Shown piece after piece: positions 4,539-32,893 of a stretch of 34,595 bases of DNA. Each line of letters starts with the position of its first letter. Position 1 is the stretch's first letter. The notes beneath the pieces are model-generated. The model did not search any database. It was not told the DNA's origin and saw only the letters and a list, made by a program, of their open reading frames with translations. The position numbers were made by a program, and so were the translations under genes. Source of the DNA: Nemertoderma westbladi (Eukaryota > Animalia > Xenacoelomorpha); the NCBI GenBank assembly GCA_032718475.1, contig JAUCBJ010006709.1, forward strand, positions 1-34,595, read 5' to 3'.

Positions 4539-4554
4539 GTAAAATTAACTCGGT

Positions 4555-4770: not shown

Positions 4771-4800
4771 TTATTAAATTTATGCAAAAAATATATTGAT

Positions 4801-7699: not shown

Positions 7700-7710
7700 A
7701 TCAACAAAAA

Positions 7711-9240: not shown

Positions 9241-9286
9241 ACTCTTGGTTGAACGAGTCCCAACTACGTAAATAAATCAACAAAAA

Positions 9287-10912: not shown

Positions 10913-10943
10913 ACGATAAATAAGGAGATATATTCAGGAAGCA

Positions 10944-11541: not shown

Positions 11542-11555
11542 ACTAAATAATAATA

Positions 11556-12688
11556 ATGGAAGAAACCACAGAAGAACTAGATTTATTCAATCGCAGTAAT
11601 ATTCAGAGTGTAATTGAAGAAAGTTTTGAGCAGGAAATATACCCTGTGACTACATTGGGAGAGGGCACATCAGTTCTAGATTTCATGATTGAAAAGTCAG
11701 AAGATTACTATACGATAGGAAGTGAAACAACACTACAATTAGTATATTGTATTGTAACTACAGCACGACCTGACAATGGCGCAGTTTATCAAACACCACT
11801 AAGCCTCTCTACTCTATTTTCAAACATTAGCGTTTTGATTAATGAGCGGGAGGTAGAGTCTAATACTGCGAACTATCCCTATAAAGCTTTCCTAAAAGCG
11901 GTCTTACTTAATGATCAGAGTACAAAAGAAACGATTTAGCTGCCGAAGGGTTTGCAGAACAGGAAGCATTTGGTGTTCCTGTAGACTTTGCTGCAGCTGC
12001 TCATTTGGAAAGTAGACCATATCATGTTCAGGGGTCTCTATTTGTTGACCTTTTTGATCAGGTTAAATTTATCCCACCTAAAACTAGTATAAGAATTAGA
12101 TTAATAAGAGCTACAAATGCATTTAACTTAGTATGTATTGCAGCTGTACAAGAGCCTCGAATCAATATATCTAATGCTTTGTTGAAAATTAAACGAGTAA
12201 AATTGGATCCATATATACGTCAACAACATATAGAACAATTAACAATAGGAGATTATATTTATCCAATTACACAGAATGAGGTGACAACCTTTACTATAGA
12301 AAATGGTCAACAATCTCATGTGAGGGAAAATTTGTTTACAAGCAAGAATGTACCTCGCTATGTTAATATTGTCATGGTTCGAAATGACTCTTACAATGGA
12401 AACTTAAGATCTTGTTCCTGATTGTTTGATCACTTTAATGTGAATTACTTACAACTTACGCTTGATGGTAAGGTAATCGGAGGTGTGACATATAAACCAA
12501 ATTTTGCTAATGGACAATATATTAATGAGTATTGCGCCAGTCAAAAAAACCTGCTATCTATAACCAGAGGTACAAACAACGGTATTACTCCCACTAGATT
12601 TCGTGATTTATATCCAATATTTTCTTGGAATTTATCCCCCACGGGATTTATTGATGAAGAAGAACTAAACCCACATCAAATAGGCAAT
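11556..12688 (+). pseudogene. Major capsid protein (double jelly-roll), disrupted and 3'-interrupted
   Basis: EELDLF..IQSVI...EIYP, SLSTLFSNISVLIN, YPYKAFL, DLFDQVKFIP..IRIRLIR, YNGN, FDHFNVNYLQL; frameshift near 11935, in-frame TGA 12419-12421; similarity stops at about 12688. Confidence 0.88.
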
Positions 12689-13597
12689 AGTAGTAGGAGA
12701 AGCATAGATCTCACCCAACTCCTCCCTAGCTTGGGCTACGGGCTGCATCTCGGAGGGCTATTAAAAAGGTGCTAAATCGCGATGTTTAATGACCATCTGT
12801 CACCATCAATATTGATGCCTTCAACCAATCGTTGCTTATCACCTACGCGTAGCCTAACCTCGCGATGCCTGCCTTACTCGACAACTGTTACCACCCGTGA
12901 GTATTGATTCGCGTTGTTGCATCAACCAACCATCGCATATTCATCTTCGCGTAACCTAACTTCACGATGCATGGCTAGCCCCCACTACGCTATTATATTA
13001 TATATCGATTGCCAACTCACCACCACCACCGCTAGCCACGCATGGCTACTCCTCGACGGCTGTCGCCAAACCAATCAATCCAACCAACCAAGCCGCCTGC
13101 CTACCAGTAGTCCAACGCTATTATGATACGTGTTGAAATTCCGCCACGTTCCAGCTACACGTATACGAATATTTCCATAGTTATTTCCTATCCACGCAAC
13201 CAACCACTGTATACTGTATATGCTGACAACGTGGCCACCAACTACACACATCATGCATATATTATATTATATTGATTGCCAACTCCACGACCGCTGTCGC
13301 CAAATCAACAAACCAACCAGTATGATACATGAGATTCCGTCACGTTCCAGCTACGCGTATACGAGTATTAGTGATTAATATTACGCAATAATTTTTTTGT
13401 TTATACAGTAGTTCCCTACCAGCTAATCAACCAATCAATAAACCGAATTTAGGCTATTTCTCAGTTTAAGACCTGTATTATTTTTGAAAATATCTTATAT
13501 ATAATCTCTTGCTTTAATCGCAATTAATCATTTGTAATGGTTTTAGTTTAAAAGTTTTTACTTTGTTTGTTTGATTTACAATAAAATAAATTAAATA

Positions 13598-14041
13598 ATG
13601 TCTTCTGATTCCAATATGGTTATGCCAATAGTAAGGCATTCATTTTTTGCAGAAGATGGTCAAGCCTATATTGTTATTGATTATACAATTTACCGTCAGG
13701 AAGATGATAAATATAAAATTGAATTTTCTGAAAAAGCCAGGAAAGTTTTAAGCTCAATTGATATTGATGCTTCTGATAATAGTATTCATCTTTTAGATTA
13801 CAACCTGAAAGCTGAGCATGGGGGAAAATTAACCAACATCTTACTATTATCCATGATAGAGAGATTTATTGTTATTACACAATACAACGAAGCTGGTGAA
13901 AAGTTTGAAATACGGCTAAATCGGCATAGCCCCTACGAAATTATGTCTTTCTTTATTGTAATGATTTCAAAAGAATCCTTTGTCGAACCTGAAGAATCAG
14001 TGGATAATGTTGAATATGTTGATAATATCATTGATTCTTGA
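13598..14041 (+). CDS. Hypothetical protein (147 aa), probable Polinton accessory gene
   Basis: Clean ATG in A-rich context, intronless, flanked by AT-rich spacers; no motif recognised. Confidence 0.6.
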   Translation: MSSDSNMVMPIVRHSFFAEDGQAYIVIDYTIYRQEDDKYKIEFSEKARKVLSSIDIDASDNSIHLLDYNLKAEHGGKLTNILLLSMIERFIVITQYNEAGEKFEIRLNRHSPYEIMSFFIVMISKESFVEPEESVDNVEYVDNIIDS

Positions 14042-14139
14042 CTTTTCCCTCTATATTATAAATATTTTATGATTATATATAAAATTTTGTTGTTTTTAAA
14101 TAATCGAAAATTGTAGTAGTATTTGTATATACAGTATAA

Positions 14140-14645
14140 CACGAAGTGGGGACTTCGCGCAGCACGAAGTTGGCAGAGCCTTAGCGAATTGACACTGTTA
14201 GGGGGTAGGTCAATTTATGCAAATAGTCACGTTGGCCCTCTAGCGGCAGACTGGAGAACTGCAGATGGATTCGCCTCCCTTGAAAGTCACAGCTAATGGT
14301 CTAATACATATCTGCCAAGTTTCAGCTTAAACGGATTAAAAGCAAAGAAATGGGAGGGCATTTAATGTTTAGACATGTGGCCCTCTAGCGGGAGACCATT
14401 GCACTGATGGTGTCTGAAAGTCTCTCAAAAATCTCAACTTTTGCTCATATTGATACCTACAAATTTTCAACTTGGCAGCTTTAAATCCGACAAAGTTATT
14501 AGCATGTCAAAATCGTAACGACGACGACAACGACGACGACGACAACGACGACGACGACGACGACGACAACTATTTGCATAAATTGACCCACCCCCTAACA
14601 GTGTCAATTCGCTAAGGCTCCGCCAACTTCGTGGCTCGCCCCACA
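14140..14645. mobile_element. Non-autonomous element with 65-bp inverted repeats and internal (GAC)n microsatellite (MITE or Helentron-associated type)
   Basis: 14163-14227 is the near-perfect reverse complement of 14569-14633; (GAC/AAC)n at about 14518-14570; small hairpin cgaagt-ggg-acttcg at 14142-14156. Confidence 0.8.
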
Positions 14646-14710
14646 GTTTTGTTTGTTGTTGTTGTTGTGTATTGTGGTAATTATTTTCAATTTACTTTAA
14701 AATTTGGAAA

Positions 14711-15163
14711 ATGGATATTTTAAATGAAAAATGTCCAGTTTGCTATTCTAAGTTATTGCAACAACATCGAGATTATTATAAATGTGAAAATAAACATGTA
14801 ACTTGCGTACAATGTATTGCACAATATTCCGAAATGAATAATTATTGTTCTAAAATTTGTCCTATTTGTCGCGCACCCATATCTAAGTTTAATATAAAGT
14901 TGGCAAGATACCAACCCTATTATTGGAAAGAGCTTCGCAATATAACTTATATTTCTGCGAAAAGTAATGATCCGGGAGATTTATTTACAATATTGGTGAA
15001 TATTTTTTATAGAAACGTAGTACGACGCTGTTGCTACTATATTCCTTATTTTTTTAGCAGCGAACATAAAAAAATCATTAGCGCGAAATTTTCGGGAAGT
15101 GATTTCCAAACCGCCGATGTTACGTATCATTATTTCGCGTATAAAGATGCTCACCATGCTTGA
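14711..15163 (+). CDS. C3HC4 RING-finger protein (putative E3 ubiquitin ligase)
   Basis: CPVC-x13-CENKHVTCVQC-x15-CPICR spacing; intronless, ATG start. Confidence 0.8.
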   Translation: MDILNEKCPVCYSKLLQQHRDYYKCENKHVTCVQCIAQYSEMNNYCSKICPICRAPISKFNIKLARYQPYYWKELRNITYISAKSNDPGDLFTILVNIFYRNVVRRCCYYIPYFFSSEHKKIISAKFSGSDFQTADVTYHYFAYKDAHHA

Positions 15164-15382
15164 AATTACATCAGTCTATACTATAATTGGAAATAGCACC
15201 TTTTGCTGCAGCGAGCGTCACATACTGTAGTGGCGTCATATGTTAATTAAATATACAGTACTCTAATATTGTAGTTGCATCAATTATTGTTATATACATA
15301 GTAATGGTGTTGGTTTATTGATATTGATATTGATATTATATTATATTGTATTGTTGATATATCTTAATAATAATAATAATAA

Positions 15383-15730
15383 ATGGCTGACTTTAATTCA
15401 GGTCCATATAATTTAAACTTTCAAATGGGCACAAGTATGATAATTTCAGGGCCATCTGGTTCCGGAAAGTCAACCTTTGTAAGCAATTTAATTAAACACA
15501 AGAATGGTTGTTTCAACGAAGCCCCCTTGCGAGTATTGTATTGTTACGGGAGCAATCCCCCGACTATTCCCGGTATTACTCACCTTTACAAAGGCTTGCC
15601 TGAAAATATAGATAGTTTAGTGAATAGTCGAGATTTATTAATTATAGATGATTTGTTAACAGAAACTGAGTCCAGTACAGCTTTAACTGTATTGTTTACT
15701 AAGGTAGCTCATCATATTCCATCATCATCA
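15383..15730 (+). pseudogene. Packaging ATPase, N-terminal half (copy B)
   Basis: Walker A GPSGSGKS, Walker B LLIIDDLL, LFTKVAHH; truncated. Confidence 0.88.
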
Positions 15731-15734
15731 TATT

Positions 15735-16428
15735 CCAGAAAGGAAAACCAAACAGAATCGCCACGGATCAAGGTTCTGAGTTTCTAAATAAATCTGTAAG
15801 GAAATATTTAGATACGTTAGGTATACAGTATTACGTAATGTATTCTGTGAATAAGGCGGCTATTGTCGAGAGATTTAACAGAACCTTAAAAACAAAGATG
15901 TTCAAAATTTTCACGCAAAGGGGAAATAATATTTGGATAAAAATTTTACCTAAGCTTATCTCGGCTTATAATAGGTCGTATCATAGAACAATACAAATGA
16001 CACCTATTGAAGTTAATAAATTTAATGAAACTGAATTAATGAATAGATTATATGGGAAATATAGACAGATAAATCACAAGAAAATAAAATTTAAAGTTGG
16101 AGATACAGTACGATTATCTATTGCTCGTACTGCTTTTGCTAAAGGCTATCGAGAACAATGGACACGTGAATTATTTATTATTCATCGGGTCAGGTTGGAT
16201 AGAGTACCAGCGGTAATGTTCGATATTAAGGACAGCACCGGAGCTATAATAAAGGGCTCATTTTATTCTCACGAACTCCAAAAGGTCCACCCGAATAGTA
16301 ATATTTATCTAGCAATTGACAAAAAAAATATTGGCAAACTTAAAGAACGTGTACGCAATGGGAAGAAAGAATATTTAGTCCGATTCATCGGATCCAAGAA
16401 ACAGTCCTGGGTACAGCATATTCAATAA
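15735..16428 (+). pseudogene. RVE integrase C-terminal two-thirds with chromo-like tail (copy B)
   Basis: RKPNRIATDQGSEF upstream of the ORF, KAAIVERFNRTLK, KFKVGDTVRL, KGYREQWTRELF, GSFYSHELQ, KEYLVRF..SWV; first catalytic Asp region missing. Confidence 0.9.
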
Positions 16429-17833
16429 GCTTAGGTTCGTACTTCTTCAGTAAATATCTAGAGAACTATCCAATGAAAATCCTTCAAATTTTCAAATTAG
16501 CTTCCTAATAAGTAATGGGAAATGTTTGCTTTTCAAAATTTAAAATTTTTCCAATATTTCAAAAATCATTTTTTTACATTCACTGTGCGGACGTTGATTT
16601 TGGTGACGTCATAGTTATGTGTGTTGTGCCTGAGTGTGTTTAGTGATGTCCACAAACCCCAACTGGGGTCAAGACACATACGGAAATTAATGTCCACATT
16701 CCACAACTCGTGTAACACATACAGTATATGGGAAAGGAAACTGAAATGCTTTGTTTTTATGCAACTTCATGGATATGATTATAGTAATTGGATTACTTGG
16801 CCAGGTCAGTCCATAGAGATAATGTTCTTTTATTGTTTTTATACACTCGTGAATAATTATTGTAAAAGTTAATATTTCCCTATTAGTTACCTAAGGACTA
16901 TTTGTGGTACAAGTTTCCTTAGTTTACTCAGTTACTATAACAATGGGTTTTCACTTAGTCGATAGCGATAGCGCTGAACAATCCCGCCTGTAAAGCAATG
17001 CATACAAGTTAGCATGTAGCAATTTGTTTTGAAAATACTTGCAGTCTCAAGAAATAAACCGTAATACTGCCATCACTGCTCAAAATATTCTTTTTTTCTG
17101 CGGGAAGACTAATTATTTTTAGGTTGTATATAAATACAAATAGAGTGGCGCACAGCAATTAATGATATAACTCTTATCATTCAATTAATTATATTAATTA
17201 TGAATTGTATGCCTTAAAATTATTTGGACCCTTCTACAGTACGTATTGTAAGAGCAATAGACGCTAAGAATATATAATAAATTAACGAGAACACACCGTT
17301 CTAAATACTGTCCCTTGCGCACATCTGGGGACATTAGTTTTTGTATTGTTTTTCTGCAGGCCATACGGTATGTAGTTGCAATGGACATTTAAGAAAATTT
17401 TTTATATATTGACGAAAACACACCGTTCTAAATACTGTCCCTTGCGCATATCTGGGGACATTAGTTTTATTAGTGCTGGGAGTATTATATTAGGTCCTAC
17501 GTTTAGTTGCAATGAATGTTAAGAATATTTAATATATTAGCAAAAACATACCATTGAAAATACTGTCCTTTACGCACATCTGGGGACATTGGTTTTTGTA
17601 TAGGTGAGATAGGCTCTACGTGAACCATGTCCTGGAATATAGTGTCGTCATTCAGGTCCCTCCCCCCCCCCCCCCCCCCAGGGTTTAGGGTTTTTTCTAA
17701 ATATGTTAGGGAAATTTATAAATGAAAATAGCGATTTCTAAATTTTTAATTATACTTGTTTAGAAATTGGTCACATAGAGACTAACCAATTCGCGCGGGA
17801 AGGTTTTAAACTTTACATGCATTTAACTCAGAA

Positions 17834-19561
17834 TATTATTTCTCATTTTTTCCTTCACTCAAAACCTATCTACACCGTCATTTTTTAATGAATTCGTTTG
17901 AAATTTTCAGTGAATGGTCTTGACATATTCACTCACATATTGGCCGTTAATCAGAAGACTAATGTTAAGGGCACGTGTTTGTCCATACATTTGACTATTA
18001 AGCTTATGTACCTCTTCTGAGGAATTGGTTCAACAGAATGACTTGAAATTTGGAGGGGAATTAATTTTGCATGTGTCTCAGACGTGGTAGCAGAATAAAT
18101 AAAAAACATTATTGTGATCACCAGAAATTTTCAAAGTGAAAAATGTTATTTGCAAAAAGTGAAAAAAAACACGTATTTTGGCCGTTTTTTGTTATGTAAC
18201 TTTTTAAATTTCTAACCCATTGTCTAAATGTGCTATCACCTATAAAGGATTAGTATAAGAACATATACTAAAAATTTCATGCAATTTGGTCCAGTAGTTC
18301 CAGAGAAACAGGTACATGAGTGAAAAATAAAAACGAAAAATAAAATTCTGAGATAAAGCCATTTAAAGTTTTCAAACCTTCCCGCCATTTTATGTTAAAT
18401 GGAGGGATAATTCAAATTGTATTGAAAAAATAAGGAAGAATCCTTCCAAACTAAAATTTTCGATATGGGGGTTTTCTGGGGTGGTGATTGCATTTCCGAT
18501 GTCAGTTTTGACGTTTGATGAATTCCAGTCTGTCTGTTTGTCGGACAATCTGTCTGTCTGTCAGTCAATAATTAAGGAAACACACTACCGAACTGAAATT
18601 TAGGTTATGGGGGTTTTCCAGGTCGGTGATTTCAGCACCGAAGTTAGTTTGGACGTTTGAAGAATTCCAGACTGTCTAAATGTCAGTCTGTCTGTTTATC
18701 AGACAATCTGTCCGTCTGTCAGTCGAAATTTAGGAAAGGACACGACATCGCTAAAAATTGATTTAAAGGGGTTTTCCTGGTCGGTGATTCCATTTCTGAT
18801 GTCAATATTTAAATATAATGGCTTTGTGTTGGGTCTGTATTCATGTCGGTCTGTCCGTCAAAATATAACAGACAGACAGACAACCTAATAGACCATCTAG
18901 AATCCTTTAACCGTTAAAACGGACATAAGAAATGGAATCATAGACCGGGAAAACATCTACAACAATATTTTCAGTTGTGTATTTCATTCATTACTTTTTG
19001 ACTGACAGACAGGCCAACAAACAGAACAGACAGCGACAGATAGACAGACAAGCAGGCAGGCAGAATGACAGACAATCTAGAATACATAAACGTTGAGACT
19101 GACATTATAAATGTGAAACTAAACAGGAAAATTCCTACAGTATGGCAAAATTGTACATTGCACGTGTTTCTTAAATTTTGTCAGACTGACCGACTGACAG
19201 ACAAACAGACAGCTATAACTCGAGAACTAAAAGAGATCTCGCTATGTCGTTTTTCAGTTTTGAAATAGCCATTAAATTTTGATACAGAATCCTTAAAAAA
19301 ATTTTTTGATTTTTTTAAATTTTGACCACAAACACGTGCCCTTAACTAAAAAAATGAAAAAATGTTAACTAAATGTGTTTTATTTTTGCCCGATATTTTC
19401 AGATTATCGGCTCAAAACATAACTTACGCTCGAAATTTCAAAATTCTGTCTACAAGTTTTATTGGTTAATGTCAAGACCATTCACTGAAAATTTCAAACG
19501 AATTGATTAATATATGACGGAGTAGATCGATTTTGAATGAAGGAAAAAATGAGAAATAATA
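17834..19561. mobile_element. MITE-like element with ~100-bp inverted repeats (host of the TTAA element)
   Basis: tattatttctcattttttccttca...ttttcagtgaatggtcttgacat (17834-17925) mirrored at about 19470-19561; right side abuts the RTE fragment, so true termini are uncertain. Confidence 0.7.
17969..19341. mobile_element. Non-autonomous DNA transposon with 14-bp TIRs and TTAA target duplication (Kolobok-like)
   Basis: TTAA-GGGCACGTGTTTGT ... ACAAACACGTGCCC-TTAA; purine termini favour Kolobok over piggyBac; internal gtct/agac mirrored repeats. Confidence 0.82.
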
Positions 19562-20330
19562 CCATCGCCCTGATGCTCTCTAGTACGCTAACAGATGCAC
19601 AGTTTCTACTAAATAAAGTGGAGAGGGCTGCTAAGGAGGTTGGATTGCATATAAATGCTAGCAAAGACCGAACTCATGACCTTTAATGTTGATGGAACTG
19701 ACTTGACAACCATTGATAATAATCAACTAAGGAACGTTGACGACTTCCAGTACCTTGGATCATGGATAGAGAGTAGCAAAAAGGACATAGAAGTTAGGAA
19801 AGCAAAGGCTTGGGTAGCTCTATCAATAATGGATACCATCTGGAAATCAGATCTCTCCAGGCACCTGAAGATTCTAAGTTCTTTCGAGCCACAGTGGAAA
19901 GTGTATTTTTATACGGGGGTGAGACCTGGACACTGACGAAATCACTTGAACTACGAATTGATGGTTGCTACACAAGACTACTAAGGGCAGCCCTAAACAT
20001 CAGCTGGAGACAGCACATGGCAAACGCCGAGCTTTATGGTACAATACCACCTGTATCAACCACCCTCCGTGAATGCAGATTAAGATTCAGTGGGCACTGC
20101 TGGCGAAGTAAAGACGAGGTCTTACCAGATCTACTTTTCTGGCAACCAACTCATGGAAAGCGTAGTCGTGGACGACCGGCCTTAACATATATACTGTAGA
20201 TCAACTTGAAAGGGATACTGAACTTGGGAGAAACGAAATTGCGACAACTATGGAGAATCGGGAATCCTTGAAGGATCTCATTTCCACTATCCGAGTTCGC
20301 TCGACCTAGTAGTAGTAGTAGTTGTAGTAA
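19562..20330 (+). mobile_element. RTE-clade LINE 3' fragment
   Basis: KVERAAKEVGLHINASK, VDDFQYLGSWI, ESVFLYGGETWTL, LRFSGHCWR, GKRSRGRP; frameshifts; (AGT)n tail at 20308-20329. Confidence 0.9.
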
Positions 20331-21547
20331 CATTCATTGAAACTATACGTAGGGCCTATTATAATACTCCCAGCACTACAAAAACTAATGTCCCCAGATG
20401 TGCGCAAGGGACAGTATTTAGAATGGTGCGTTTTCGTCAATATAAAAAACATTTCTTAATGGCCATTGCAACTACATACCGTATGGTCTGCAGAAAAACA
20501 ATACAAAAACTAATGTCCCCAGATGTGCGCAAGGGACAGTATTTGGAATGGTGTGTTCTCGTTAATTTATTATATATTCTTAACGTCCATTGCAACTAAC
20601 TACCTACATAAGTAGAACGTAGGGCATAATATAATACTCTCAGAACTAAAAAACTAATGTCCCCAGATGTGCGCAAGGTACAGTACACTATTTAGAATGC
20701 GAGTTAATTTATTATAATGTCTATTTCCACTACAGTACGTAGAAATGGTCTAAAAAATTAAAGGTATAAAATTAATGATATAATTAATATAATTGAATGA
20801 TGTGAATGTAATTTGAAGGATAACAGTTACATCATATATCGTTGTGCTCCACCTTGTTTGTTTAAACATGAATTTAATTAGTGCCCACGCAGAAAAAAAG
20901 TAGCAGTGGCCGTATTACGATATTTGTCCATATCTTTTTTAAAAAATTTATACATGCTTGTATGCATAGTGCATGCGGGATTGTTAAGCACTATCGACTA
21001 AGTGAAAATCCATTCTTATAGTAACTGAGGAAAGTTGCACCGCAAGGGGTGCTTAGGTAACTCATAAGGAAATATTAACTTTTACAATTATTCACGAGTG
21101 TATAAAAACAATAAAAAAACGTTATCTAGGGATTGCCTGAGCTGCATTGTCTCAAAGACAGACCCGACTAACTAATCCATAAATAATTGAACATAACACA
21201 TAACATACTTAATTTCAACCACAAACCGGGGTCGTTAAAAATTAAGTTCACTGGGGACATTGTGACGTCACAAAATGACGTAGATAATGTGTGTATACTT
21301 ATCACTGTTATAGTGGGGACATCAATATTTACACCCCATACACACCGAACACATACGAGTGCGGCTTAACACAAACAAAGTGGGGACTGAGCCAAAATAC
21401 GGTGAAATTTCATATTTAGACTAATTTGGCAATGAAGATTTCGAATTTCCAGTCAGAACGTTCTGGGGACGTCCCCAGTTCGCGAAAGGTCCCCAGAACG
21501 TGGGTATTGTATGGCACTTACGTCCACAGTATGTAGCGTTAACCAGT

Positions 21548-21548
<1 letters not shown>

Positions 21549-21590
<42 letters not shown>
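21549..21590. repeat. (CA)21 microsatellite, left flank of the tyrosine recombinase element
   Basis: Perfect CA dinucleotide run. Confidence 0.97.
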
Positions 21591-21593
<3 letters not shown>

Positions 21594-22916
21594 GTACTAA
21601 ACGTGTAAATTGCGGACAACCGCCTGAGATAGCCAAACTGGGGACATGCTCATATTTCAACAAAAATCACTTTTTTCGAAAGTTAATGTCATTTTTCATT
21701 TAATTTTATTACTCTTAACTTCCTCCAATAGTATCGATTTGTAGATTTCGTTTTTATTCGATCTCGCCCCAGTAATGCAAAACGGGGACACATCTCTGAC
21801 GTCACACAGCGTTTCACTGTCAACCACTTTTCTCCAACCAAATGGGGACATATTATTGGCACTCCGGTCTCCATCAAAATATTATGTTCCATTTTTATAC
21901 AACAAGTGTTTATACTTTCGGATTGCACCTCCCACCTACTACTCGGGGAATGAATCGCTAACTTTTCTAAATAAACCAAATTTGAATTTGTGTGGCTATA
22001 AAAGGGCCTGTTGGTCCATTGATACCAATGAATTTCATAGTTTATACGAATCAGGGGATTGTGACCATCATATATTGGATATATTCAATATTTTTGTATC
22101 AGGCCTTCCGGCAGCCAAACACTGATTTTTAGGTGTACCCCGTTATCGCGCTTTAAGTATTTTTTTGACGGATTCGGATTATCTATCTAACCTAACTATT
22201 AATCTTGAATTAAGTTAGAAATAAATTAGACTCCTTTCCTAGGAAACTACAAATAATACAATAGGCCTATGTGTGAATACTGAATACTTTAATTAATATA
22301 TCAATATAAAACCGCTGTTCCCCAAATGGCAATTGATAAACACAGGTATTTTAATACCTTTAAAACTTAATTTTTGTTGCTTAGAATTATGTAGGTGGGC
22401 CTGTTATCCATCGTATAAGGGGTCATTGCAAGCACATTGTTTCAACGTCATCTATTGCAGGAGTAGCGCATTGTATTTAGGCATATGTACTGTACAGCAT
22501 TGTATCCACTGTGTAGGCCTACAGTACGAGTCCACGATACCCAACTTACCCATCCCAAACTGGGGACTTTTAATTGGCCTTTTCCAGGTGCATGAGACAA
22601 TGTTCCCATGGAAACACAATCTGTGTGTTAAGCTTTGTTAGGTTTTTAACGTAGAAGTGGGGACAGCAGGGGAAATGGGATGGCAGCATATCCGTGCGAT
22701 TTCTTGGAAAATGAGAATATTAGTTTTGTGCATTTGTAAGTTCGTTATTAATCATATAATAGGGGACAGACACGTCTGTGCCTTATTATTGCCGGTAAGA
22801 GAGAGCTTGTGTTCTCCGCGAGTTTTAATTAAATATTTTCAGTGAAATATTTGTTTTACCAATTTGTTTCTATTGACTGTATTTCATCGCTGAACCTGTT
22901 CTAATCATCGAAAACA

Positions 22917-25900
22917 ATGTCGAAGCGGAGAAAGAAGCCATTGGAAATAAATGTAAAGGTATGTTTCTTCAAGTACTGTAACAGTTCCGGTACCATTTTA
23001 GCCTGTATCATGTCGTAGTGAATTGAATAGAATAAACAAACGTTCGCTTTATTTTCCGTACCTTTCGGTAAAAATATCAAGCGAGTTAATGTAATAGAAC
23101 GATGCCTTTCGTGGCATAAGGTTTTCGGTAAAAAGGAAAGATAAAACCTACTATTAATTAGTCTTACTTACTATAAAGTACTGACTTTTTTAGTTATACA
23201 GCATACTATTTATACTATATTCATAAATAAAGTCTTACTTACCGGTACCTACTATATGGACTCTATGTTTGAACGAGGTTGTTATTTATCTGTCCATGCG
23301 CTTTTGTGGTACCTGTAACGGACACACGGACAAGTGTGGTGAACAGAGAGATTCGATTAAATTAATGTTTTTCAGTACGCCTACCTTTTTATTGGGTACC
23401 GAATTTTGAGAACCCTTTCCTTTTCTATAATTTATAGTCTAATATATTTTATCATTGTATTAAAATTACCAGGTTGGAGATTGCCATTTAATGAAATGGA
23501 ATGATGCGAAATCTTACCAGGGGACTATACTCGAATATCCTTATGCAGACGGAAAAGGTTAGATTATGAAAACAATAAAATACAGTAGCCTATTTAGCTG
23601 AGCAACTTTCTAAATCATAAACTATTGGTAGATATTATGTCTTCGAAATCCGAACATCCTCGGACAGGGGGTGGGTGGGTTGGCTAAATTGGGACGTCCG
23701 ATTTTTCGATTTTTTAGGATTTATAGTTTTAACATAATAAAATTCACAATACTATACAGTTGGAGTCTGGAATACATAATTCGATTAGTTTGTTAACATA
23801 AGGTATTAAGTTGAGGCATATCTTCATTGTTTTACATTTGTGGTTACTGTGGTTTTTTTCAGATTTCGCACTAACAGCATTATCGCAATTTGAAAAAAAG
23901 TTAGGTGGAACCTTGTCTCAATTTTAGCATTATTTTACGGAATGGTGCAAATTAATAAAATATATGGTTAGGACATTATCGTACCATTTTTGGTTTTTTA
24001 TCCTGCTATTCATTATCGGTATAATTTTATCAGTGAAAGTGGTCCGTGAAACTTTCCCAGGGAAAATGGGGCTTATGTTATTACTGTTACCTTGCAACAT
24101 TTTTAGGATCAAAAGACTTAGTTAAAGTGATGTACAACGAAGATTCTATAACTAGTGTCATAAAACGGAATTGGGTATTGGGAAAAATAATTCGTAGTCC
24201 AGATAATAACATCAATTCCAGAAATTCCGAAATTCCAGAAAGTAAAGTCGAAAGTTGTGAAAGTCAAGTTAATGAATGTCCCATAAGTCAGTTGGATCAA
24301 GTGTTTGAATGTCCCAGAAGTAAAGAAGGTCAAGACGAAAGTCTTAAAGATATTGAATGTCCCGTGCTTCAAAAAAGTCAAATCGACAGTTGTCAAAGTC
24401 AAGTTAATGAATGTCCCATAAGTCAATTGGTTGAATGTCCCGTGAGTGAGCAGAGTCAAGTGGTGGAATGTTCCGGAAATCAGCAGAGTCAATTGGTTGA
24501 ATGTCCCGTTAGTCAGCAGAGTCAAGTGGTTGAATGTCCCGTTAGTCAGCAGAGTCAAGTGGTCGAATGTCCTGTTAGTCAGCAGAGTCAATTGGTAGAA
24601 TGTCCCGTTAGTCAGCAGAGTCAAGTGGTGGAATGTTCCGGAAATCAGCAGAGTCAAGTGGTGGAATGTTCCGGAAATCAGCAGAGTCAAGTGGTGGAAT
24701 GTCCCGTTAGTCAGCAGAGTCAAGTGGTGGAATGTCCCGTTAGTCAGCAGAGTCAATTGGTTGAATGTCCCGTTAGTCAGCAGAGTCAAGTGGTCGAATG
24801 TCCTGTTAGTCAGCAGAGTCAATTGGTTGAATGTCCCGTTAGTCAGCAGAGTCAATTGGTTGAATGTCCCGTTAGTCAGCAGAGTCAAGTGGTCGAATGT
24901 CCTGTTAGTCAGCAGAGTCAAGTGGTAGAATGTCCCGTTAGTCAGCAGAGTCAATTGGTTAAATGTCCCGTTAGTCAGCAGAGTCAAGTGGTCGAATGTC
25001 CTGTTAGTCAGCAGAGTCAATTGGTTGAATGTCCCGTTAGTCAGCAGAGTCAAGTGGTAGAATGTCCCGTTAGTCAGCAGAGTCAATTGGTTGAATGTCC
25101 CGTTAGTCAGCAGAGTCAAGTGGTCGAATGTCCTGTTAGTCAGCAGAGTCAATTGGTTGAATGTCCCGTTAGTCAGCAGAGTCAAGTGGTGGAATGTTCC
25201 GGAAATCAGCAGAGTCAAGTGGTGGAATGTCCCGTTAGTCAGCAGAGTCAAGTGGTGGAATGTCCCGTTAGTCAGCAGAGTCAATTGGTTGAATGTCCTG
25301 TTAGTCAGCAGAGTCAATTGGTGGAATGTCCCGTTAGTCAGCAGAGTCAATTGGTTGAATGTCCTGTTAGTCAGCAGATTCAAGTGGTGGAATGTTCTGG
25401 AAATCAGCAGAGTCAAGTGGTGGAATGTCTTCTTACGGAATTCTTACGATTTAAGAAACATTGGAATAATTGATCAAAATTTGGAGGATGATGATGATGA
25501 CGATGACGATAGAGCTGGTGGATCGGATTGGGTAGCTGATTCTGAAGAAGAAATTGGACCAGAAGAATTTGATGCAGACAATGGAGGTCCCGTAACACAC
25601 GTAAATGACAAAATTACAATAGCTTCCACGTCAAATCGAACTGTTGGTGGCGATTATGTTAGGGTTTACAATAAAGAACAGATGTGTTATTATTGTCAAG
25701 TACCTCAGACCAAGTTAAAACGACACCTTTTATCACAACATCGTGGTGAGAAAGAGGTGTCTCAACTTGCAATTGCGAATACCTTAGATGAGGCTAATAT
25801 AATACAGGCAAAAATTCGAAATTTAGGAGCGCATCAACACAATTGTGATGTGCTACTGAGAGGAGAGGGTAAGCTAATGGTCGTTTATAGACCCACCCCT

Positions 25901-28900
25901 GGTCACAATTACTCTGAGAAAGATTATAGTCCATGTCCTACTTGTTTAGGCTGGTACGTTAGGCGAGATTTATGGCGACACAGATGCCCAGTTGAAATCC
26001 AAAAGAAGAGTAGGCGTTTCTTATATGAAAGCGAGCTTTTAAAGCCTACGAACATGGGTATATCTGGAAAAATTTCTGAAGTATTAGGGACTATGCGCCC
26101 AGATAATGTCTCAATTGTGGTGAAATCAGATCCTACTATAATGAAAATGGCAAAAAGCCTGTGTCACAAGCACGGTCATAATAAAGAAAGAAACGCTTAT
26201 ATCCGTGATAAGCTTAGAGAGGTGGGGCGGTTGTTGGTTCAGTTGCGCATATGTACAAACAAACCAAATGGTAAGTTGAGTGATTATTTGCGCCCAGAAT
26301 GTTTAGATAACGTCATAGAAGCGACCCATCAAATTGCAGGCTTTGATAGTGACACACTGTCTCTAAGTAACCCATCGCTCGCATTGAAGATTGGACATGC
26401 TGTGAAGAAATGCGCTACGTTATTAAAAGGTACCGCAATAGAACATAATGATAGCCAACTTCTCAACATTACAGACAATTTCCTTCATCTTTGTGATTTA
26501 CGCTGGTCTGACTTCGTATCAGCCCACGCACTCAGAACAATATATGATCGTAAACGCAACACAAGTGATAATTTACCAGTTACAAGCGATGTTGTGAAAT
26601 TCTGCGAGTATCTGCAGCGTAACATTGACATCCATATAGGGAAATTAATTTCGGGTCATTCAAATTGTAAAGAACAATGGGGGGTCCTTAGTGAGATTGT
26701 GTTGTCTTATTTAATCATATTCAATCGGAGAAGGCAAGGAGAGGTCAGCAAAATGAAAGTTCAGGATTTCAATAAATCAATAGACTCGGGAACTGTAAAT
26801 AATTCGATAGATACGAATGATTTAGAAGAATTAGAAGTTCAACTAATGAAAATATTTCATGTTGTGGAAATTGTAGGGAAGAGGGGTAGAAATGTTCCGG
26901 TTTTACTCACGGACAAGATTAAAGAAGCACTAGCTCTCTTAATAAAATTAAGGAACATTGTTGGCGTTAACGAGATGAATCCCTATTTATTTCCAAGATC
27001 GAGTCAGGGAAGCCTCTGGCACATACGTGGATACGAAGCAATAAATAAGCACGCCATCCTTGCTAAATTGCTAAATCCAGAAACTATGAAATCTACCGAT
27101 CTTAGGAAGCATCTAGCCACGAGTGTACAGGTCTTGAATCTGAAAGAGAACGAGCTCGATATTTTAGCAAATTTTATGGGGCACGACATTCGTGTACATC
27201 GAGAGTATTACAGGCTGCCCGATAAAGTCCTACGTGTCACACAGCTTTCCAAGGTTTTCTTAGCCATGGAACAGGGAAAGATAACAGAACATCGTGGCAA
27301 GAGCTTGGAGGAGATTACTTTAGGTAATGGAATTTTAATAATTAGATGAAACTGTTCGTTCCGTCTTGTTTCTTATATTTGTTGTGTTTTTAATAAACCC
27401 TAAATCATGTTCCTGATCTGCTTCGATTGTACCATCGCTTCTTACTGAACTACTTGTAATTGTTTCTGACTATTGTCTTGTTTTACTGCTGTTTGTGATA
27501 ATAATTGTTTTGTTCCGAATAATTAATTGTTTGTCCGAATAATTACCGCATAATCTAATAATTGCACAATATTTCTTCCCGATTGCGTGTTATCATACAG
27601 TAATTGCTCTATTGTTATGTGAGTATTGACATCTGATGTCTCTAAATATTGCACTGCTCAAAAACTAAACGTGCTTCAATTTAAATATTATTGTTATCAG
27701 AGTGCCTGTTTACACAATTCAACATGTTGATTCAACATTTTACCTTTTACCTTGGTTATATTGAAAAATATCGAGTGTTGAAAAATATCGAGAGTAAAAA
27801 TATCGAGTGTTGAAAAATATCGTATATAATATCGTAATATAACAAAAAAATTGCTCTACAACATTTATAAATAGAAGTAGAAAATACTAGCTAGTATAAA
27901 AAATTATAATGTGATATATTTACTCTCGATATTTTTCAACACTCGATATTTTTACTCTCGATATTTTTCAAGTCTCGATATTTTTCACCATTACCTTTAC
28001 CTTTTATACTTTATATTATTAACATTTTTTCATCATAGAACCATCCCGCGACAGCGATTCCGACAGCGATTCGGACAGCAGCAACGAAGGAGACCAAGAG
28101 AATGAGAATTTATCTTCAGCGGTAAATGTGGATCGCGTTGTTCCACGTCCACTACCACGGCAACATGGTAAAGACGAACATGGAAGTAAATCCTCAAAGA
28201 TGAAAGTCGGCGTGAGAAATAGTAAGTGTAGGATAATAATTTACTTCACAAACTACCCAGTTAAAAATACAATGGCGTGGCATTTGGGTTAAAATTGCGT
28301 CTGGAGTAGCAATTGCGTACCCATGTTATTGCGTTTGATTACTGAGACGAATAGAGTATTACAGTATCCACAAATAGTGTAACAATTATTAGGTACAGCA
28401 ATGGAGTAGGCATTCTAGGTGAAAACGAAAACCGCCACTAAGTGTTGAAACTTAACGCAAAGCCCAGCATAGCAAATCAAATATCTCGTTTCGGATCATG
28501 AACAATGTGAATTATTAAATAAGGGAACGGAACATAATACAGTATATATGGTTTTTAAACAAAACAATAAACTAGAGCCAATAACGCATGTTACAGTCTG
28601 ACAGTGTTACTTTGCTGGTGTTTGCTTATGTTGCTTTTGTCCAGGTGGTTGTGTGACTAATAAGTCACTTTAATAAGTCATCATTCCCGATCTAACCAGA
28701 TGTAGGTCGGGTTATAGAGTAGTGCAGCTGCCACATGTTGGACAGCCACTCTCATCAATGTTTGTCTGTTAGTTTAATATATTCCAACCTAGAATTACCA
28801 ACCTAGGGGTTTATATATAATGGGCTATGACACCACCCCCACCTGAATTAAATTACACATGACAGATTACTTTAAACTAACTAGTGTGATTTTCTGGGGA

Positions 28901-29831
28901 CTTTCGACGCAATAAAAATCCAGCCTTTTCCAGGGGAAATTCGACGCAAATAACAGCTGATTATTCCAAAAAATAAAACTGTACTGAAAACTATTTTATT
29001 GACATTAGTTTAGTATAGTATACTGTAGGCTGGTATAAGGTGTAGGTAGGCTGCTGTAGGGTCTATATGTTGGGATAGTCTGCAATTGGTTTGTGTAAAA
29101 GATTAATCCCGAAATGTCTGTGTCTGGTCTAGTTAATATATTTTTGCTTTTTTTTTCGCTGTTTATACGCTATTCTGACCCTATTGGAATCTTTGCATAT
29201 TTTAAAAATACCGCAAACCTACACAATAAATACGGTGTAAATACAATTAAGGGAAACGCTATTTCCACCACATTGCAAGGGCGGACATTACAACCGCGCT
29301 TTAATGTCGTTTAATAATGGCGTTAATAATAGAGCAGCATTTTTAACTGGGTAGTTGAATACATTATTACGCTACGGAGTTGTTACAGTATAGAGTTTAT
29401 TTAATTGTATTTTATTGATATAAATTATTTTCATTGCTATCCTTTTAAACTGTTAAATTAAATTGTTAAGCTAAGAAATTAAATTCAACTTTTAAACTTA
29501 TATTTAAACATTTTCGATGTTAACTCGCGATATACTGTACGTATACATCTTTAGAAACATGATACAGTAATCTACATAGAATAATTAATTAACAAGAAAA
29601 ACAAATGCTTATATATTTTTAGAAAAATCAGTTCAAAGGAAGACATGGTCAGATGATGAGAGATGGGCCATTAAAAGGGCAATTAGGGGATTTCCACTCG
29701 CCCTGCAACTGCCGGGCAAAGAAGATATAGAAAAGTGGATCTTCAAATATCGTGCTCTAGGGGACCGCAACTGGCGAAATGTAAAAGATTTTATACGAAA
29801 CAACAGATCGAAACTACTCAAACATCCTTAA
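22917..29831 (+). CDS. Spliced gene: Tudor-like + SQ-rich repeat + Zn fingers + tyrosine recombinase + SANT/Myb-like tail; exons 22917-22958, 23473-23557, 24107-27323 (one +1 frameshift near 25430-25470), 28039-28221, 29623-29831
   Basis: All four introns are GT-AG (gtatgt, gttaga, gtaatg, gtaagt donors; ccag, ttttag, catag, tttttag acceptors) with matching phases 0,1,1,1. YR motifs FNRRRQGEV, GKRGR, STDLRKHLAT, FMGHDIRVHREYY; last exon RKTWSDDERWAI..LPGKEDI..RNWRNVKDFIRN. Confidence 0.8.
24427..25428 (+). repeat. 33-bp coding minisatellite, 30 full units plus a partial, encoding (V/L)VECPVSQQSQ / VVECSGNQQSQ
   Basis: Unit (g/t)tggtNgaatgtcccgttagtcagcagagtcaa from 24427 to 25416; no unique spacers; more degenerate units upstream from about 24240. 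Confidence 0.97.
27753..27990. mobile_element. Small foldback/MITE in intron 3
   Basis: Tandem aaaaatatcgag units (27764-27822) mirrored by ctcgatattttt units (about 27913-27987); flanked by ttacctt direct repeats. Confidence 0.7.
28256..29351. mobile_element. Non-autonomous DNA transposon with CCCAG termini and TA flanks (CMC/EnSpm-like) in intron 4
   Basis: ta-CCCAGTTAAAAAT ... ATTTTTAACTGGG-ta. Confidence 0.65.
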
Positions 29832-30413
29832 CTGGAGGATTAGGAATTACTATCTGAATTAATCTAATTCTGTTATAAATGTATCTCTATAGTAAGGTTA
29901 AGGAACTATGATTTTGTTGTGTCGGTCGGTAATATCATATTCATATCATACCAGTAGAGTGTCAGGTATATATTGGAGTGAATTAAACGGAATAAGTGAT
30001 TTTAATGCCTGGGGCTGGTAAACTAATTTCCTTACAATAATTTGTCTGTAGACATCAGTCAATATTATTAATTTGTGTTATGTCCTCTATTTGCGCAATT
30101 AAGCTTGTGACGTCATGGAATTTGGAAAAATGATACATACACGTCGGTTACCGGCACTATGGGGACACAGGAATTGGTACGCAACTTACTATTGGTTCGG
30201 GGACACATACAGAAGACACACTCACACCCTGTACACTTATTTTTAACAAATCGTGGACAAATGAAGATACCATTGAATTAATGATATATTTATGTTAATT
30301 AGTGTTCTAATTAGGTTTTTTAGTCTTTTCAAATCGGGGTCGTCCCCAGTCTGCACGATGTCCCCGTTTTGTGGGTGAAAATTATGGGATGTGTCCCCAG
30401 TTTACACCATTTG

Positions 30414-30415
<2 letters not shown>

Positions 30416-30482
<67 letters not shown>

Positions 30483-30500
30483 ACACACACACACACACAC
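30416..30500. repeat. (CA)n microsatellite (~85 bp, one interruption), right flank of the YR element
   Basis: CA run with a single CCC interruption at 30480-30482. Confidence 0.97.
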
Positions 30501-30961
30501 CTACGGGTGAAAGGTGTAAATCGGGGACATCCCTTTGTTACAAACAAACCGAGACCACCTTTCAAATTCATTATTTTTGACAATATACTTTTGAAAATAT
30601 TATATTCTTTATCGCTATAAAATTTCCTATCTACCCTATATCCTTTGATTGACCCAATCACCGTTTTTCCAAACACGCACTTCACCTTAAAACCGGGGAC
30701 TCACCACGTCGGAGGGAATACACATATGTGTATAATTGTGTTAAATCTTGGTATGATATAAACAATACAAAACGGGACATTTTACATTTGACAAGCATAT
30801 TTCATTACTCAAATAAGATATCCATCCCTGAATATTACCAAAGCCTCATTACTATTATTCAGCATGATCTTGAAAATATGATTTACATTATTGTCATAAT
30901 TTAAAGCTATGATTGCAGTTTTTCTGCAAACCCACGGGTGTACATACAATTCGGGGACATA

Positions 30962-31905
30962 GGGGCCGTCCAAGTATGACGTCTGCACTTTTCCCCCAAA
31001 TGTTGACCCCCTCCCTCCCCTAAATCAGATATCATCAGATAGGTGTTGACCCCCCCCCCCCCCTAAATCAGATTAAAAAATTTTTTGGAATAAACTATTA
31101 TCAGCAGGTTAAAGGTATTATATTGCATTGGACAGTTGGAGGGGGTGCACGGGGGCTGGCTGTTACATAGCTTATCTACAGTATATAGGAAGGTATAGAG
31201 TTGTAGTAGGATAGCCTATCGGGCCCATGTGAAGAATACCAGACTTTCTGCCGTTATGTTTCACTTTGCAGTTACCCCCATGTGAAGAATACCAGGTTTT
31301 CACCAAAAACACAGGTTACTGAAGGGCTGAATCTAACCAAAACAATAAACGAATTAGTATATGTACAGGTTATAAGACAGAAATAAGCGCTACAAAACAC
31401 TTAATAAAGATAAATTAAAAAAAATAAAAAATCTTCATATATAAAATTACAATAAAAAGTCGACCGAAAAGTGAAATCCTGGTATTCTTCACATGGGTGA
31501 TGCATGAGTTTATGAATGATAATAAACAAACATAAGCTAATAATAAGCCTATATGAACCGGTGGAGGTAACGGTACTGCAGTCTCTAACAATCATTAGCT
31601 TAGGATTAATGTTTCATTTTCAGGCGAACCCCTGTACCGCAGTACCCCAGTAGCACGCGTCCTAATCACTGAAACATGGTGACTGGTAACTGAAACAGAA
31701 GGTCGTGCTACGGGCCTTCGGGGGCTTCGAACAATAAAATAGGCAAGCTATTTACTCTTCTGCTATATCTCTTCTAGCACCTATAAATGAACATGCTGAC
31801 GTCAGATTTTGGCTGACCCCCTCCCCTCCCCTCATCAGCACGTCATCAGATTTTCCCAACCCCCCTCCCCCCCCTAAAGTGCTGACGTCATACTTGGACG
31901 GCCCC
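30962..31905. mobile_element. MITE with ~30-bp TIRs and 3-bp ATA target duplication (PIF/Harbinger-like)
   Basis: ATA-GGGGCCGTCCAAGTATGACGTCTGCACTTT ... AAAGTGCTGACGTCATACTTGGACGGCCCC-ATA; empty-site paralog at about 32157-32185. Confidence 0.85.
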
Positions 31906-32893
31906 ATATTGTATTTCGTTCAATGATTCACGTAGATAGTGGCGGATATTGACCGCAACGCCTTCTTGAGCTGGAGCTATGGTATAGTATATGTCGATGC
32001 TAGTTTTAGCAGGTCTGGATAACTTTGCTCCCCGCCCTCCATATTTTGACAGTGTGCCTTTTGGCTGATATTTATTATGATATCGAAAACATTTATTTCA
32101 TTTGTCAAATTTTAAGGCTATTATTACAGTGCAAACCCGCGGATGTGCATAAAACTCGGGGACATATTGTATTTGGTTCAATGCATTCACCATAGCAGCA
32201 ATACGCCTTTTTAGTGCAGGAGCCATGGTATTCTGTATTTCAATGCTTGTTGTAGCAGCTTTGGATAATATTCACCACCCTCCATATTTTACCGGCGTCT
32301 TTTAATTAATAATATGATATAGATAAAATTATTTACATCTAAATGTTTTACCCCAAATAAGTTTATAAATAGCACAAACGGCCAGTGTAAAAGATCTATC
32401 CGGCAAATTGGAAAAAAAACGCTTTCTGTGAATCCTATATAAAGTTTTCATTTTTGTCTGGCAACAACCTATAAACTAGAAAGACTGCTTCTGTTTGGTC
32501 GTCCAATGGAAAGATATAAGTAGTAATGTACTAATGTACAATAATACTAATTTCTACTATATATAAAAAATAGATTTAAAAAATAAGTAGAGAGGTTGGA
32601 GAATATTATTAAAGGATCACATTGTTAGCTATCGATATTTATTTTCGGGCGTATAGCAGTTTGTTAACGAGGGGCTATTTTAATTTCGAGTGTTGCTAAA
32701 GACTAACCCTCGCGTAAAAACCTGGCTCTTTCCAGAGTGTAGGGAATTTTAGATTCTTTTGCTATTTATACTAAATTAGAATTTAATTAGAAAATTAGAA
32801 TTACATTAGAATTTTAGATTCTATTACACTAGTACTACTCATTAAAGATCTGACAATAGGCCTACGACTTTTTTTAACGTTAATATACTGTAC

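What the first reader, a model, noticed from the sequence alone, without database searches (positions are those of the whole stretch)
22917..29831. Cryptic five-exon gene fusing a Tudor-like chromatin reader to a tyrosine recombinase and SANT/Myb-like tail
Seen: splicing exons 1-3 gives MSKRRKKPLEINVKVGDCHLMKWNDAKSYQGTILEYPYADGKGSKDLVKVMYNEDSITSVIKRNWV, an NLS-like start plus the Tudor pattern VGD..L.KW.D...Y.G.I....V.V.Y.ED....V, with aromatic-cage candidates W, Y, Y. All intron phases match through to a W-spaced helical C-terminal domain. YR catalytic R, K, R, H, Y appear present, with CYYC..H..H and CPTC..H.C zinc-binding motifs. Inference: a recombinase steered by methylated histones or other methylated proteins. 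I do not know this exact architecture as described.
Basis: partly seen in the sequence, partly recalled or inferred. Interest (0 to 1): 0.85.

Follow-up and report, generated by a model that had tools for sequence, protein, structure and literature searches.

The report
Transposon splices out its own recombinase
This gene lies in an 8.8-kb stretch between two (CA)n repeats that is likely a jumping DNA element, and RNA from two studies joins its outer exons while skipping the exon for the DNA cut-and-rejoin enzyme, which would give a small predicted DNA-binding protein that likely acts as the element's own brake.

Summary
The gene is real but is not the intact five-exon fusion described. Four GT-AG introns exist in the DNA. 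Exon 3 encodes a tyrosine recombinase (YR; Xer/Cre/lambda fold, R-K-R-H-Y invariant in 28 of 28 aligned sequences), and exon 5 a three-helix homeodomain/Myb-type domain found at the end of many relatives. Exon 3 of this copy has a frame break at about 25430, so five exons give no single protein. Spliced contigs from two studies join exons 1-2-4-5 and skip the YR exon in frame (172 aa: basic N-terminus, half Tudor, acidic linker, HTH); no contig uses exon 3's splice sites. The gene sits in an 8.8-kb unit between (CA)21 and (CA)42, with inverted GGAC arms 24 nt from each repeat, fitting the microsatellite-targeting CryptonV group. The YR family is large in animals and carries SET, BRCT, OTU or Tudor N-termini; the nearest relative (Patella) also has a Tudor. 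Tudor identity here is moderately supported; methyl-histone steering is untested. Best reading: a CryptonV-like transposon controlled by recombinase-exon skipping, like the P element's splice control. New variant of a known kind.

The parts
21549..21590 (.). (CA)21 microsatellite at the left boundary (likely target/crossover core)
   Evidence: end alignment
21591..21850 (+). Left end of element B: 24-nt arm to GGAC at 21614, further GGGGAC sites at 21640, 21784, 21844
22562..22767 (+). Three GGGGAC sites (22562, 22659, 22762) around the 5' end of the longest spliced contig (22682); candidate autoregulatory sites (inferred)
22917..22958 (+). Exon 1 coding part (basic, NLS-like start); 5' UTR reaches at least 22682
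   Evidence: joint exon 1-2 GT..AG in X4 and X5
23473..23557 (+). Exon 2: first half of Tudor-like domain; phase-1 donor joined to exon 4 in RNA contigs
24107..27323 (+). Exon 3 (predicted; skipped in the RNA contigs seen): second half of Tudor-like domain, repeat linker, acidic patch, Zn motifs, tyrosine recombinase
24421..25429 (+). 33-bp coding tandem array, 30.6 copies (11-aa unit)
25430..25438 (+). Frame break in exon 3: 8-nt copy of the sequence just downstream; a DNA contig of another sample continues left of 25439 with 791 letters that do not align here
25685..25987 (+). Two Zn-binding motifs (CxxC..H..H and CxxC..HxC)
26732..27211 (+). YR catalytic residues R (26732), K (26879), R (27104), H (27182), Y (27209)
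   Evidence: fold
27754..27995 (.). High-copy MITE-like inverted repeat in intron 3 (passenger)
28039..28221 (+). Exon 4: acidic/serine-rich linker
29623..30022 (+). Exon 5: homeodomain/Myb-type three-helix domain (to 29831), 3' UTR, untemplated poly(A) after 30022
30100..30415 (-). Right end of element B: inverted GGGGAC arms (30342, 30360, 30393)
30416..30500 (.). (CA)42 microsatellite at the right boundary

Best explanation
This is likely a CryptonV-type DNA transposon of about 8.8 kb that sits between two (CA)n repeats; its gene encodes a tyrosine recombinase in one large exon that this copy carries with a frame break, and spliced transcripts of the family skip that exon in frame, which would yield a 172-residue protein predicted to bind DNA and likely to repress the element. 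How it would work: (1) intact copies make Tudor-repeat-Zn-YR-acidic-HTH (domain order shown for relatives, inferred for this family); (2) the HTH and YR bind the GGGGAC arms, and the YR excises a circle and re-inserts it by crossover within a CA run (inferred from end anatomy and the Crypton model in PMC3212892); (3) in the tissues sampled, exon 3 is skipped (shown in contigs), which removes the catalytic domain and cuts the Tudor in half but keeps the basic N-terminus and HTH (shown by translation); (4) the short protein occupies the same GGGGAC sites at the ends and around the promoter, blocking recombinase or transcription, as P-element repressors do (inferred). The Tudor would tether the full-length enzyme to methylated chromatin rather than choose the site (inferred, untested).
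For: Ends: four ends in the window (B left, B right, and the neighbours on the far side of each CA run) all place GGAC 24 nt from a CA run in the same phase; 16 of 33 GGGGAC sites lie within 450 nt of the two CA runs, about 2 per strand expected in the whole window (motif chosen after inspection); arm pattern 4 matches vs mean 0.5 in 100 shuffles. CryptonV families are reported to insert in microsatellites (one sentence in PMC8869645). YR: fold matches XerH, XerD, XerA, lambda Int, Cre as top hits (E 1e-3 to 0.05); catalytic residues invariant; 1427 clusters at E<=1e-30; near-identical copies on several contigs in sea urchin, carp and snakehead; no viral-contig loci. Skipping: X4 (study P3) and X5 (study P2) contigs join exon 1-2 and 4-5 at GT..AG and run from 23557 into 28039; X5 ends in poly(A); DNA runs X1, X2 show no such joints. 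X4's four differences from the window all occur in X2's DNA, whose contigs cover exon 2, the YR and exon 4 at even depth (77, 80-82, 79). In X4 a depth-4.6 intron-4 contig breaks the graph at exon 5, yet nothing breaks it at the exon 2-4 joint (weak hint that exon-3 forms are rarer still). The joined frame is open, 172 aa. Three GGGGAC sites flank the transcript 5' end. HTH: pLDDT 91, homeodomain/TRF1-Myb matches Z 6.5-6.8, present in 87 of 259 stored relatives.
Against: Only contigs were available: they cannot give strand, level or absence of a rare full-length mRNA, and tissue is unknown. Transcripts that include a broken exon 3 would carry an early stop and could be removed by nonsense-mediated decay, leaving only the skipped form with no regulatory meaning. 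X5 differs from X2's main DNA contig at several sites, so its transcript may come from another allele or copy. No exon-skipped protein (N-terminal domain plus HTH without YR) was found among 122 listed cluster members of relatives or by a search with exon 5, and in locus L001 the YR and HTH share one exon, so skipping is not family-wide. No empty site, circle or second full copy in this genome could be examined (no genome held). No CryptonV sequence was available for comparison. HTH binding to GGGGAC is untested; Z under 8 shows only a common fold.
Confidence: 0.55

Rival explanations
1. Same transposon, but the skipped transcript is a by-product: broken copies make exon-3 mRNAs with early stops that are degraded, or the over 3-kb exon is simply poorly included, and the short protein has no role.
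For: The window copy's exon 3 has a frame break with a stop at codon 498; a unitig break at 25439 in X2 suggests two variants there; no skipped isoform among 122 relatives' members.
Against: X1's main contig has other sequence left of 25439, so the break is not in all copies; exons 4-5 stay open and the HTH keeps family-conserved residues; both introns flanking exon 3 are phase 1, so skipping keeps the frame.
Confidence: 0.25
2. The transcript comes from an internally deleted, non-autonomous copy that lacks exon 3 in its DNA (like the KP element), not from exon skipping.
For: X5 carries differences absent from X2's main DNA contigs; X1 depth is lower over the 5' YR (75) than over flanks (about 105), so structural variants exist. 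KP-type repressors are known for P elements (PMC12393704).
Against: No DNA joint or loose end skipping exon 3 is among the listed rows for X1 or X2 (tables were cut); X2 depth is even across exons 2, 3 and 4; X4's variants match X2's YR-containing DNA.
Confidence: 0.1
3. One reading: an expressed full-length Tudor-YR-SANT enzyme whose target choice is steered by methylated histones.
For: Tudor-YR-HTH proteins are annotated in Patella and Capitella and the window YR is sister to the Patella one; W, Y, Y cage candidates align.
Against: This copy has no open five-exon frame; RNA contigs omit exon 3 and half the Tudor; the site is explained by (CA)n and end arms; relatives swap Tudor for SET, BRCT or OTU.
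Confidence: 0.07
4. The gene belongs to the neighbouring Polinton/Maverick-type element or is a domesticated host gene.
For: Polinton-type genes (A32 ATPase, rve integrase) lie at 3277-16428; the short transcript is well covered in both RNA runs.
Against: Own ends at both CA runs, 5 kb from the last Polinton-type gene; no relatives in viral contigs; exon 5 is the C-terminus of YR proteins across animals.
Confidence: 0.03

Closest known systems
CryptonV (Repbase; Kapitonov and Jurka 2012, Repbase Reports, not held; seen only as one sentence and a reference in PMC8869645 and as a name in tables of PMC4455052 and PMC5753468)
   Same: YR-encoding DNA transposon of animals; insertion in microsatellites.
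   Different: I could not see CryptonV sequences or domain descriptions; Tudor, Zn motifs, HTH tail, GGGGAC arms and YR-exon skipping are not mentioned in what I read.
Crypton A/F/I/S (Kojima and Jurka 2011, PMC3212892, passages read)
   Same: Single YR; no long TIRs; short direct repeats at both ends (here the CA run); proposed circular intermediate; some carry a C-terminal DNA-binding domain (GCR1_C in CryptonF).
   Different: No DUF3504 match for this YR; here the second catalytic His is Thr; ends have about 24-nt imperfect inverted arms and repeated GGGGAC; N-terminal chromatin modules.
Drosophila P element splice control and KP repressor (PMC12393704, passages read)
   Same: Alternative splicing decides between transposase and a catalytically dead form that keeps the DNA-binding domain; such forms repress by occupying binding sites.
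   Different: P is a DDE transposase with an N-terminal DNA-binding domain and uses intron retention; here a YR, a C-terminal HTH and skipping of a symmetric phase-1 exon. Repression and tissue specificity are not shown here.
Nimaviral YRs that insert in telomeric repeats or rDNA (PMC10871703, passages read)
   Same: Animal-associated YRs with a zinc-binding domain that insert in simple repeats.
   Different: Those mobilise large viral genomes; not compared directly by sequence here; this family gave no viral-contig loci.
Starship Captain YR (DUF3435)
   Same: Language-model look-alike at 0.88-0.89 (lead only).
   Different: Fungal giant elements; no Pfam DUF3435 match.

Membership tests
Tyrosine recombinase superfamily | Lambda-Int/Xer/Cre catalytic fold | tested here: met
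   Model pLDDT 82; top Foldseek rows all Xer, lambda Int, Cre, prob 0.98-1.0 but E only 1e-3 to 0.05; Phage_integrase E 5e-4, under cut-off
Tyrosine recombinase superfamily | Catalytic R-K-(H)-R-H/W-Y | tested here: met
   R385, K434, R509, H535, Y544 invariant in 28 of 28; the H of HxxR is T in 27 of 28
Crypton DNA transposons | YR as the only mobility enzyme, no RT | tested here: met
   No RT or DDE ORF of 80 aa or more between 21591 and 30415
Crypton DNA transposons | [quoted passage not shown] | tested here: met
   (CA)n at both ends; only imperfect arms, 14 of 24 identical between B's two ends
Crypton DNA transposons | Multiple dispersed copies, empty sites, circular intermediate | tested here: inconclusive
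   No genome held; minor divergent contigs in X1/X2; relatives multi-copy in other species
CryptonV | Insertion in microsatellites | tested here: met
   Element B and both neighbours abut (CA)n in fixed phase; not seen in three short metagenome loci of relatives, which may not reach the ends
CryptonV | YR groups with Repbase CryptonV proteins | not testable with these tools
   Repbase sequences not held
CryptonA | DUF3504-type YR | tested here: not met
   No DUF3504 match at E<=0.1, although DUF3504 is detected in other proteins by the same library
Tudor domain | Five-strand barrel fold | not testable with these tools
Tudor domain | Sequence similarity and aromatic cage | tested here: inconclusive
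   5.2 bits on a two-sequence profile, 10 of 2000 shuffles as high; W, Y, Y align; exon 2 alone finds no Tudor in Pfam, PDB or Atlas; sister protein has a weak Tudor match
SANT/Myb domain | Three-helix HTH with spaced Trp | tested here: met
   homeodomain and TRF1-type Myb tie at Z 6.5-6.8, so the subfamily is not resolved; no Pfam Myb match
Polinton/Maverick | Gene inside the Polinton's boundaries | tested here: not met
   Polinton-type ORFs end by 16530; the YR gene has separate ends at 21591 and 30415

The most novel reading that the evidence does not exclude
A widespread, barely described family of microsatellite-targeting animal YR transposons controls itself by a splice switch: including one symmetric exon builds both a working Tudor reader and the recombinase, skipping it destroys both and leaves an end- and promoter-binding repressor. 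The interchangeable N-terminal modules seen across the family (KMT5A/Set8-like SET, Tudor, BRCT, OTU) are all types used in DNA-damage chromatin signalling (recalled), so these elements would write, read or erase repair marks to manage their own recombination sites.
Probability: 0.25. Interest if true: 0.85.

Novelty: new variant of a known kind. Interest (0 to 1): 0.6.

Why it matters
Crypton transposition and its control are essentially unstudied (a 2022 review, PMC9406493, says the mechanism has not been determined). This locus gives defined ends, a candidate binding motif, a candidate DNA-binding domain and a natural recombinase-less isoform, so excision, target choice and autoregulation become directly testable. 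A YR that inserts multi-kilobase DNA into (CA)n repeats in animal cells would also be of interest as an integration tool, and the family explains many 'uncharacterized' and 'KMT5A-like' gene models in fish, echinoderm and mollusc genomes.

Tried and rejected
No own genome held, so copy number and empty sites were not tested. No run is listed as RNA; X4 and X5 were judged RNA from GT..AG joints absent in X1/X2 and from poly(A). Lack of contig cover over the YR exon in X4/X5 is not taken as proof of absence; a depth-5.4 X5 contig touches exon 3 at 24344-24400. The 33-bp array and both CA runs lay outside the two stretches laid, so the break's left side and the element ends were not checked in reads. 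Exon 5 against longer proteins: 0 of 111 candidates. P0001 residues 1-62: only itself among 3 candidates. Exon 2 alone in Pfam, PDB, Atlas: no Tudor. P0254's Tudor is not detected by Pfam or PDB on the whole protein; it rests on the UniRef name and on similarity to P0001 (E 9e-4 in 259 proteins). Viral contigs: no loci by protein, profile or end pattern; viral fold library only generic integrases. Metagenome loci L001-L003 show no CA-bounded ends. Skipped isoforms in relatives: 0 of 122 listed members. An excision-footprint reading of the break (8-bp duplication) was considered and dropped because the two bases before the downstream copy are also present in X1 and X2 contigs. A host Myb gene with an inserted YR was rejected because exon 5 is the normal C-terminus of these YRs. 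Paper searches with no description of this family: (one search was for the P element); Kojima 2020 (Genes Genet Syst) and Repbase Reports are not held and may describe it; supplements were not read. Earlier-finding look-ups by sequence, place and 'exon skipping' gave nothing.
Full report
Observation. The window is animal DNA of about 35% GC with Polinton-type genes on the left. Exons 1-3 give the quoted N-terminus. But exon 3 is not one frame: the frame entered from exon 2 runs through a 33-bp array of 30.6 copies (24421-25429) and stops at 25473, while the recombinase lies in another frame. The five-exon join has its first stop at codon 498 of 1245. At the break, 25430-25437 repeats eight bases found just downstream. 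A 2235-nt DNA contig of run X1 matches 25439-26882 exactly and continues left with 791 letters that do not align to the laid stretch, and X2's contig starts exactly at 25439. I infer a deletion with a templated insertion in this copy (or an assembly fault), with other copies or alleles different; I could not see those letters.

The recombinase. Residues from 25580 fold with mean pLDDT 82, and the top PDB matches are XerH, XerD, XerA, lambda integrase and Cre (none at E<=0.001, best 1.4e-3). In 28 aligned sequences R385, K434, R509, H535 and Y544 and seven Zn-motif residues are invariant; the His of H-x-x-R is Thr in 27 of 28. The family is large: 132 proteins of 1020-2910 aa at E<=1e-20 among 4960 candidates, the named ones from molluscs, echinoderms, a nemertean and fish, and 1427 clusters at E<=1e-30 in the 50% library. 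Of 245 stored relatives covering at least 480 YR residues and at most 1800 aa (many are isoforms), 99 have an N-terminal SET, 2 BRCT, 1 OTU, 1 Tudor, 73 a long N-terminus with none of these and 69 a short one (a second Tudor protein, P0254, fell just under the coverage cut and was added back for the tree). Several species hold near-identical copies on different contigs. No viral-contig locus was found.

C-terminal domain. Exon 5 matches the end of 87 of 259 stored relatives, folds at pLDDT 91 into three helices and matches homeodomains and TRF1-type Myb domains equally (Z 6.5-6.8, rmsd 1.8-2.9 over 52-60 residues; Foldseek E only about 0.5-2). It is an HTH; Myb versus homeodomain is unresolved, and DNA binding is predicted, not shown.

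Tudor. On a FastTree of 75 YR cores (reduced to under 62% identity, short-N-terminus rows left out) the window YR is sister to Patella caerulea P0001 (99), whose first 55 residues match Tudor models weakly (LBR_tudor E 0.0017; Agenet and SGF29_Tudor in its isoform; SPF30 E 0.013 in PDB) and which UniRef names Tudor domain-containing. Capitella P0254 carries the same name and falls elsewhere in the same larger group. The spliced exon 1-2-3 N-terminus scores 5.2 bits on a profile of these two, reached by 10 of 2000 shuffles; the exon 1-2-4 form scores -0.2. Exon 2 alone finds no Tudor. I put Tudor identity at about 0.75; ligand binding is untested.

What is transcribed. Six runs were listed, none on record as RNA; four were laid. 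X4 (study P3) and X5 (study P2) hold contigs confined to exons 1, 2, 4 and 5, with GT..AG joints at introns 1 and 4, exon 2 running directly from 23557 into exon 4, a 5' end at 22682 and untemplated poly(A) after 30022. DNA runs X1 and X2 cover the introns and show no such joints among the listed rows. One X5 contig runs unbroken through all four exons. In X4 a depth-4.6 intron-4 contig is enough to break the graph at exon 5, but nothing breaks it at the 2-4 joint: a weak hint that exon-3 forms are rarer still; contigs cannot prove absence. X4's four differences from the window all occur in X2's DNA, which covers exon 2, the YR and exon 4 at even depth; X5 has further differences and may come from another allele or copy. 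Both introns flanking exon 3 are phase 1, so the 1-2-4-5 join is open for 172 codons: basic start, half Tudor, acidic linker, HTH. No such isoform was found among 122 listed cluster members of relatives, and in L001 YR and HTH share one exon, while L002 has separate YR, acidic and HTH exons.

The element. The gene is bracketed by the window's only two CA runs, (CA)21 at 21549-21590 and (CA)42 at 30416-30500. On both sides of each run lies an arm with GGAC exactly 24 nt from the repeat, in the same phase; pairwise identity of the 24-nt arms is 10-16 of 24, and the two right ends, and marginally the two left ends, resemble each other beyond shuffles (scores 42 vs max 37.5; 40.5 vs max 40). GGGGAC occurs 33 times against about 2 expected per strand; 16 lie within 450 nt of the CA runs, 6 in a nested inverted-repeat element at 17254-20685 and 3 around the transcript's 5' end. 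The motif was picked after inspection. So element B spans 21591-30415, flanked by related elements inserted at the same repeats. This fits the Crypton model of short direct repeats and a circular intermediate (PMC3212892, passages) and the statement that CryptonV families insert in microsatellites (PMC8869645, one sentence). Membership in CryptonV could not be tested by sequence.

Mechanism. Shown: domain content, ends, frame break, in-frame skipping. Inferred: HTH and YR recognise the arms; excision and re-insertion by crossover in CA runs; the short protein represses by occupying ends or promoter sites, as KP-type products do for the P element, whose activity is also set by splicing (PMC12393704, passages). 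My odds: microsatellite-targeting YR transposon 0.85; true exon skipping from YR-containing copies 0.8; a regulatory role for the short protein about 0.55 of the whole; methyl-histone steering of target choice under 0.1, a tethering role for the Tudor plausible. That SET (KMT5A-like by source names), Tudor, BRCT and OTU are all DNA-damage chromatin modules is recalled knowledge.

Novelty. Nine paper searches found no description of Tudor- or SET-bearing Crypton YRs or of YR-exon skipping; Repbase Reports and Kojima 2020 are not held and may hold one; PMC12730594 (find only), PMC9341512, PMC4738411, PMC5753468, PMC4455052, PMC9406493 and PMC10871703 (passages) add none. Two unchecked earlier notes of this scan report SET-type members between (TA)n or (CTA)n repeats in other genomes, seen after I had reached the CryptonV reading; they are not counted as support. 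Verdict: new variant of a known kind, interest 0.6.

Noticed in passing
window 3277-16530: Polinton/Maverick-type gene cluster with two A32-like ATPases and two rve integrases, a 1.58-kb tandem duplication (7665-9374 region), a TBP-like ORF (3999-4538) and a RING ORF (14681-15163); many frames are interrupted, and the cluster ends abruptly near 16530.
   Followed up: partly
window 16817-21127: Nested inverted-repeat element (arms 16817-17601 and 20328-21127) whose inner arms carry three GGGGAC-containing units each, enclosing another TIR element (17834-19561) and a LINE fragment; possibly a non-autonomous partner using the same motif.
   Followed up: no
window 21130-21548 and 30501-32300: Right end of a related element A and left end of a related element C abut the same CA runs, forming a tandem array of different families; no YR gene for either in the window.
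   Followed up: partly
window 22140-22700: Run X1 has no contig cover over the promoter region while X2 does; a variant or a filter gap.
   Followed up: no
window 26853-26882: Both DNA runs branch here inside the YR exon, and X1 depth differs on the two sides (75 vs 98), hinting at a structural variant among copies.
   Followed up: no
proteins P0129, P0146, P0244, P0250: Gene models in which this YR family (with SET) is fused to zf-FCS/QRICH1/DUF3504 (CryptonA- or ZMYM-type) domains, suggesting the two kinds of YR gene sit side by side in some genomes.
   Followed up: no
L001 1660-3930: A relative in which YR, acidic linker and HTH are one uninterrupted exon, so the skip seen here is impossible there.
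   Followed up: yes
window 27754-27995, 28897-28983, 23073-23120: Very high-depth small repeats (MITE-like) inside the introns.
   Followed up: no
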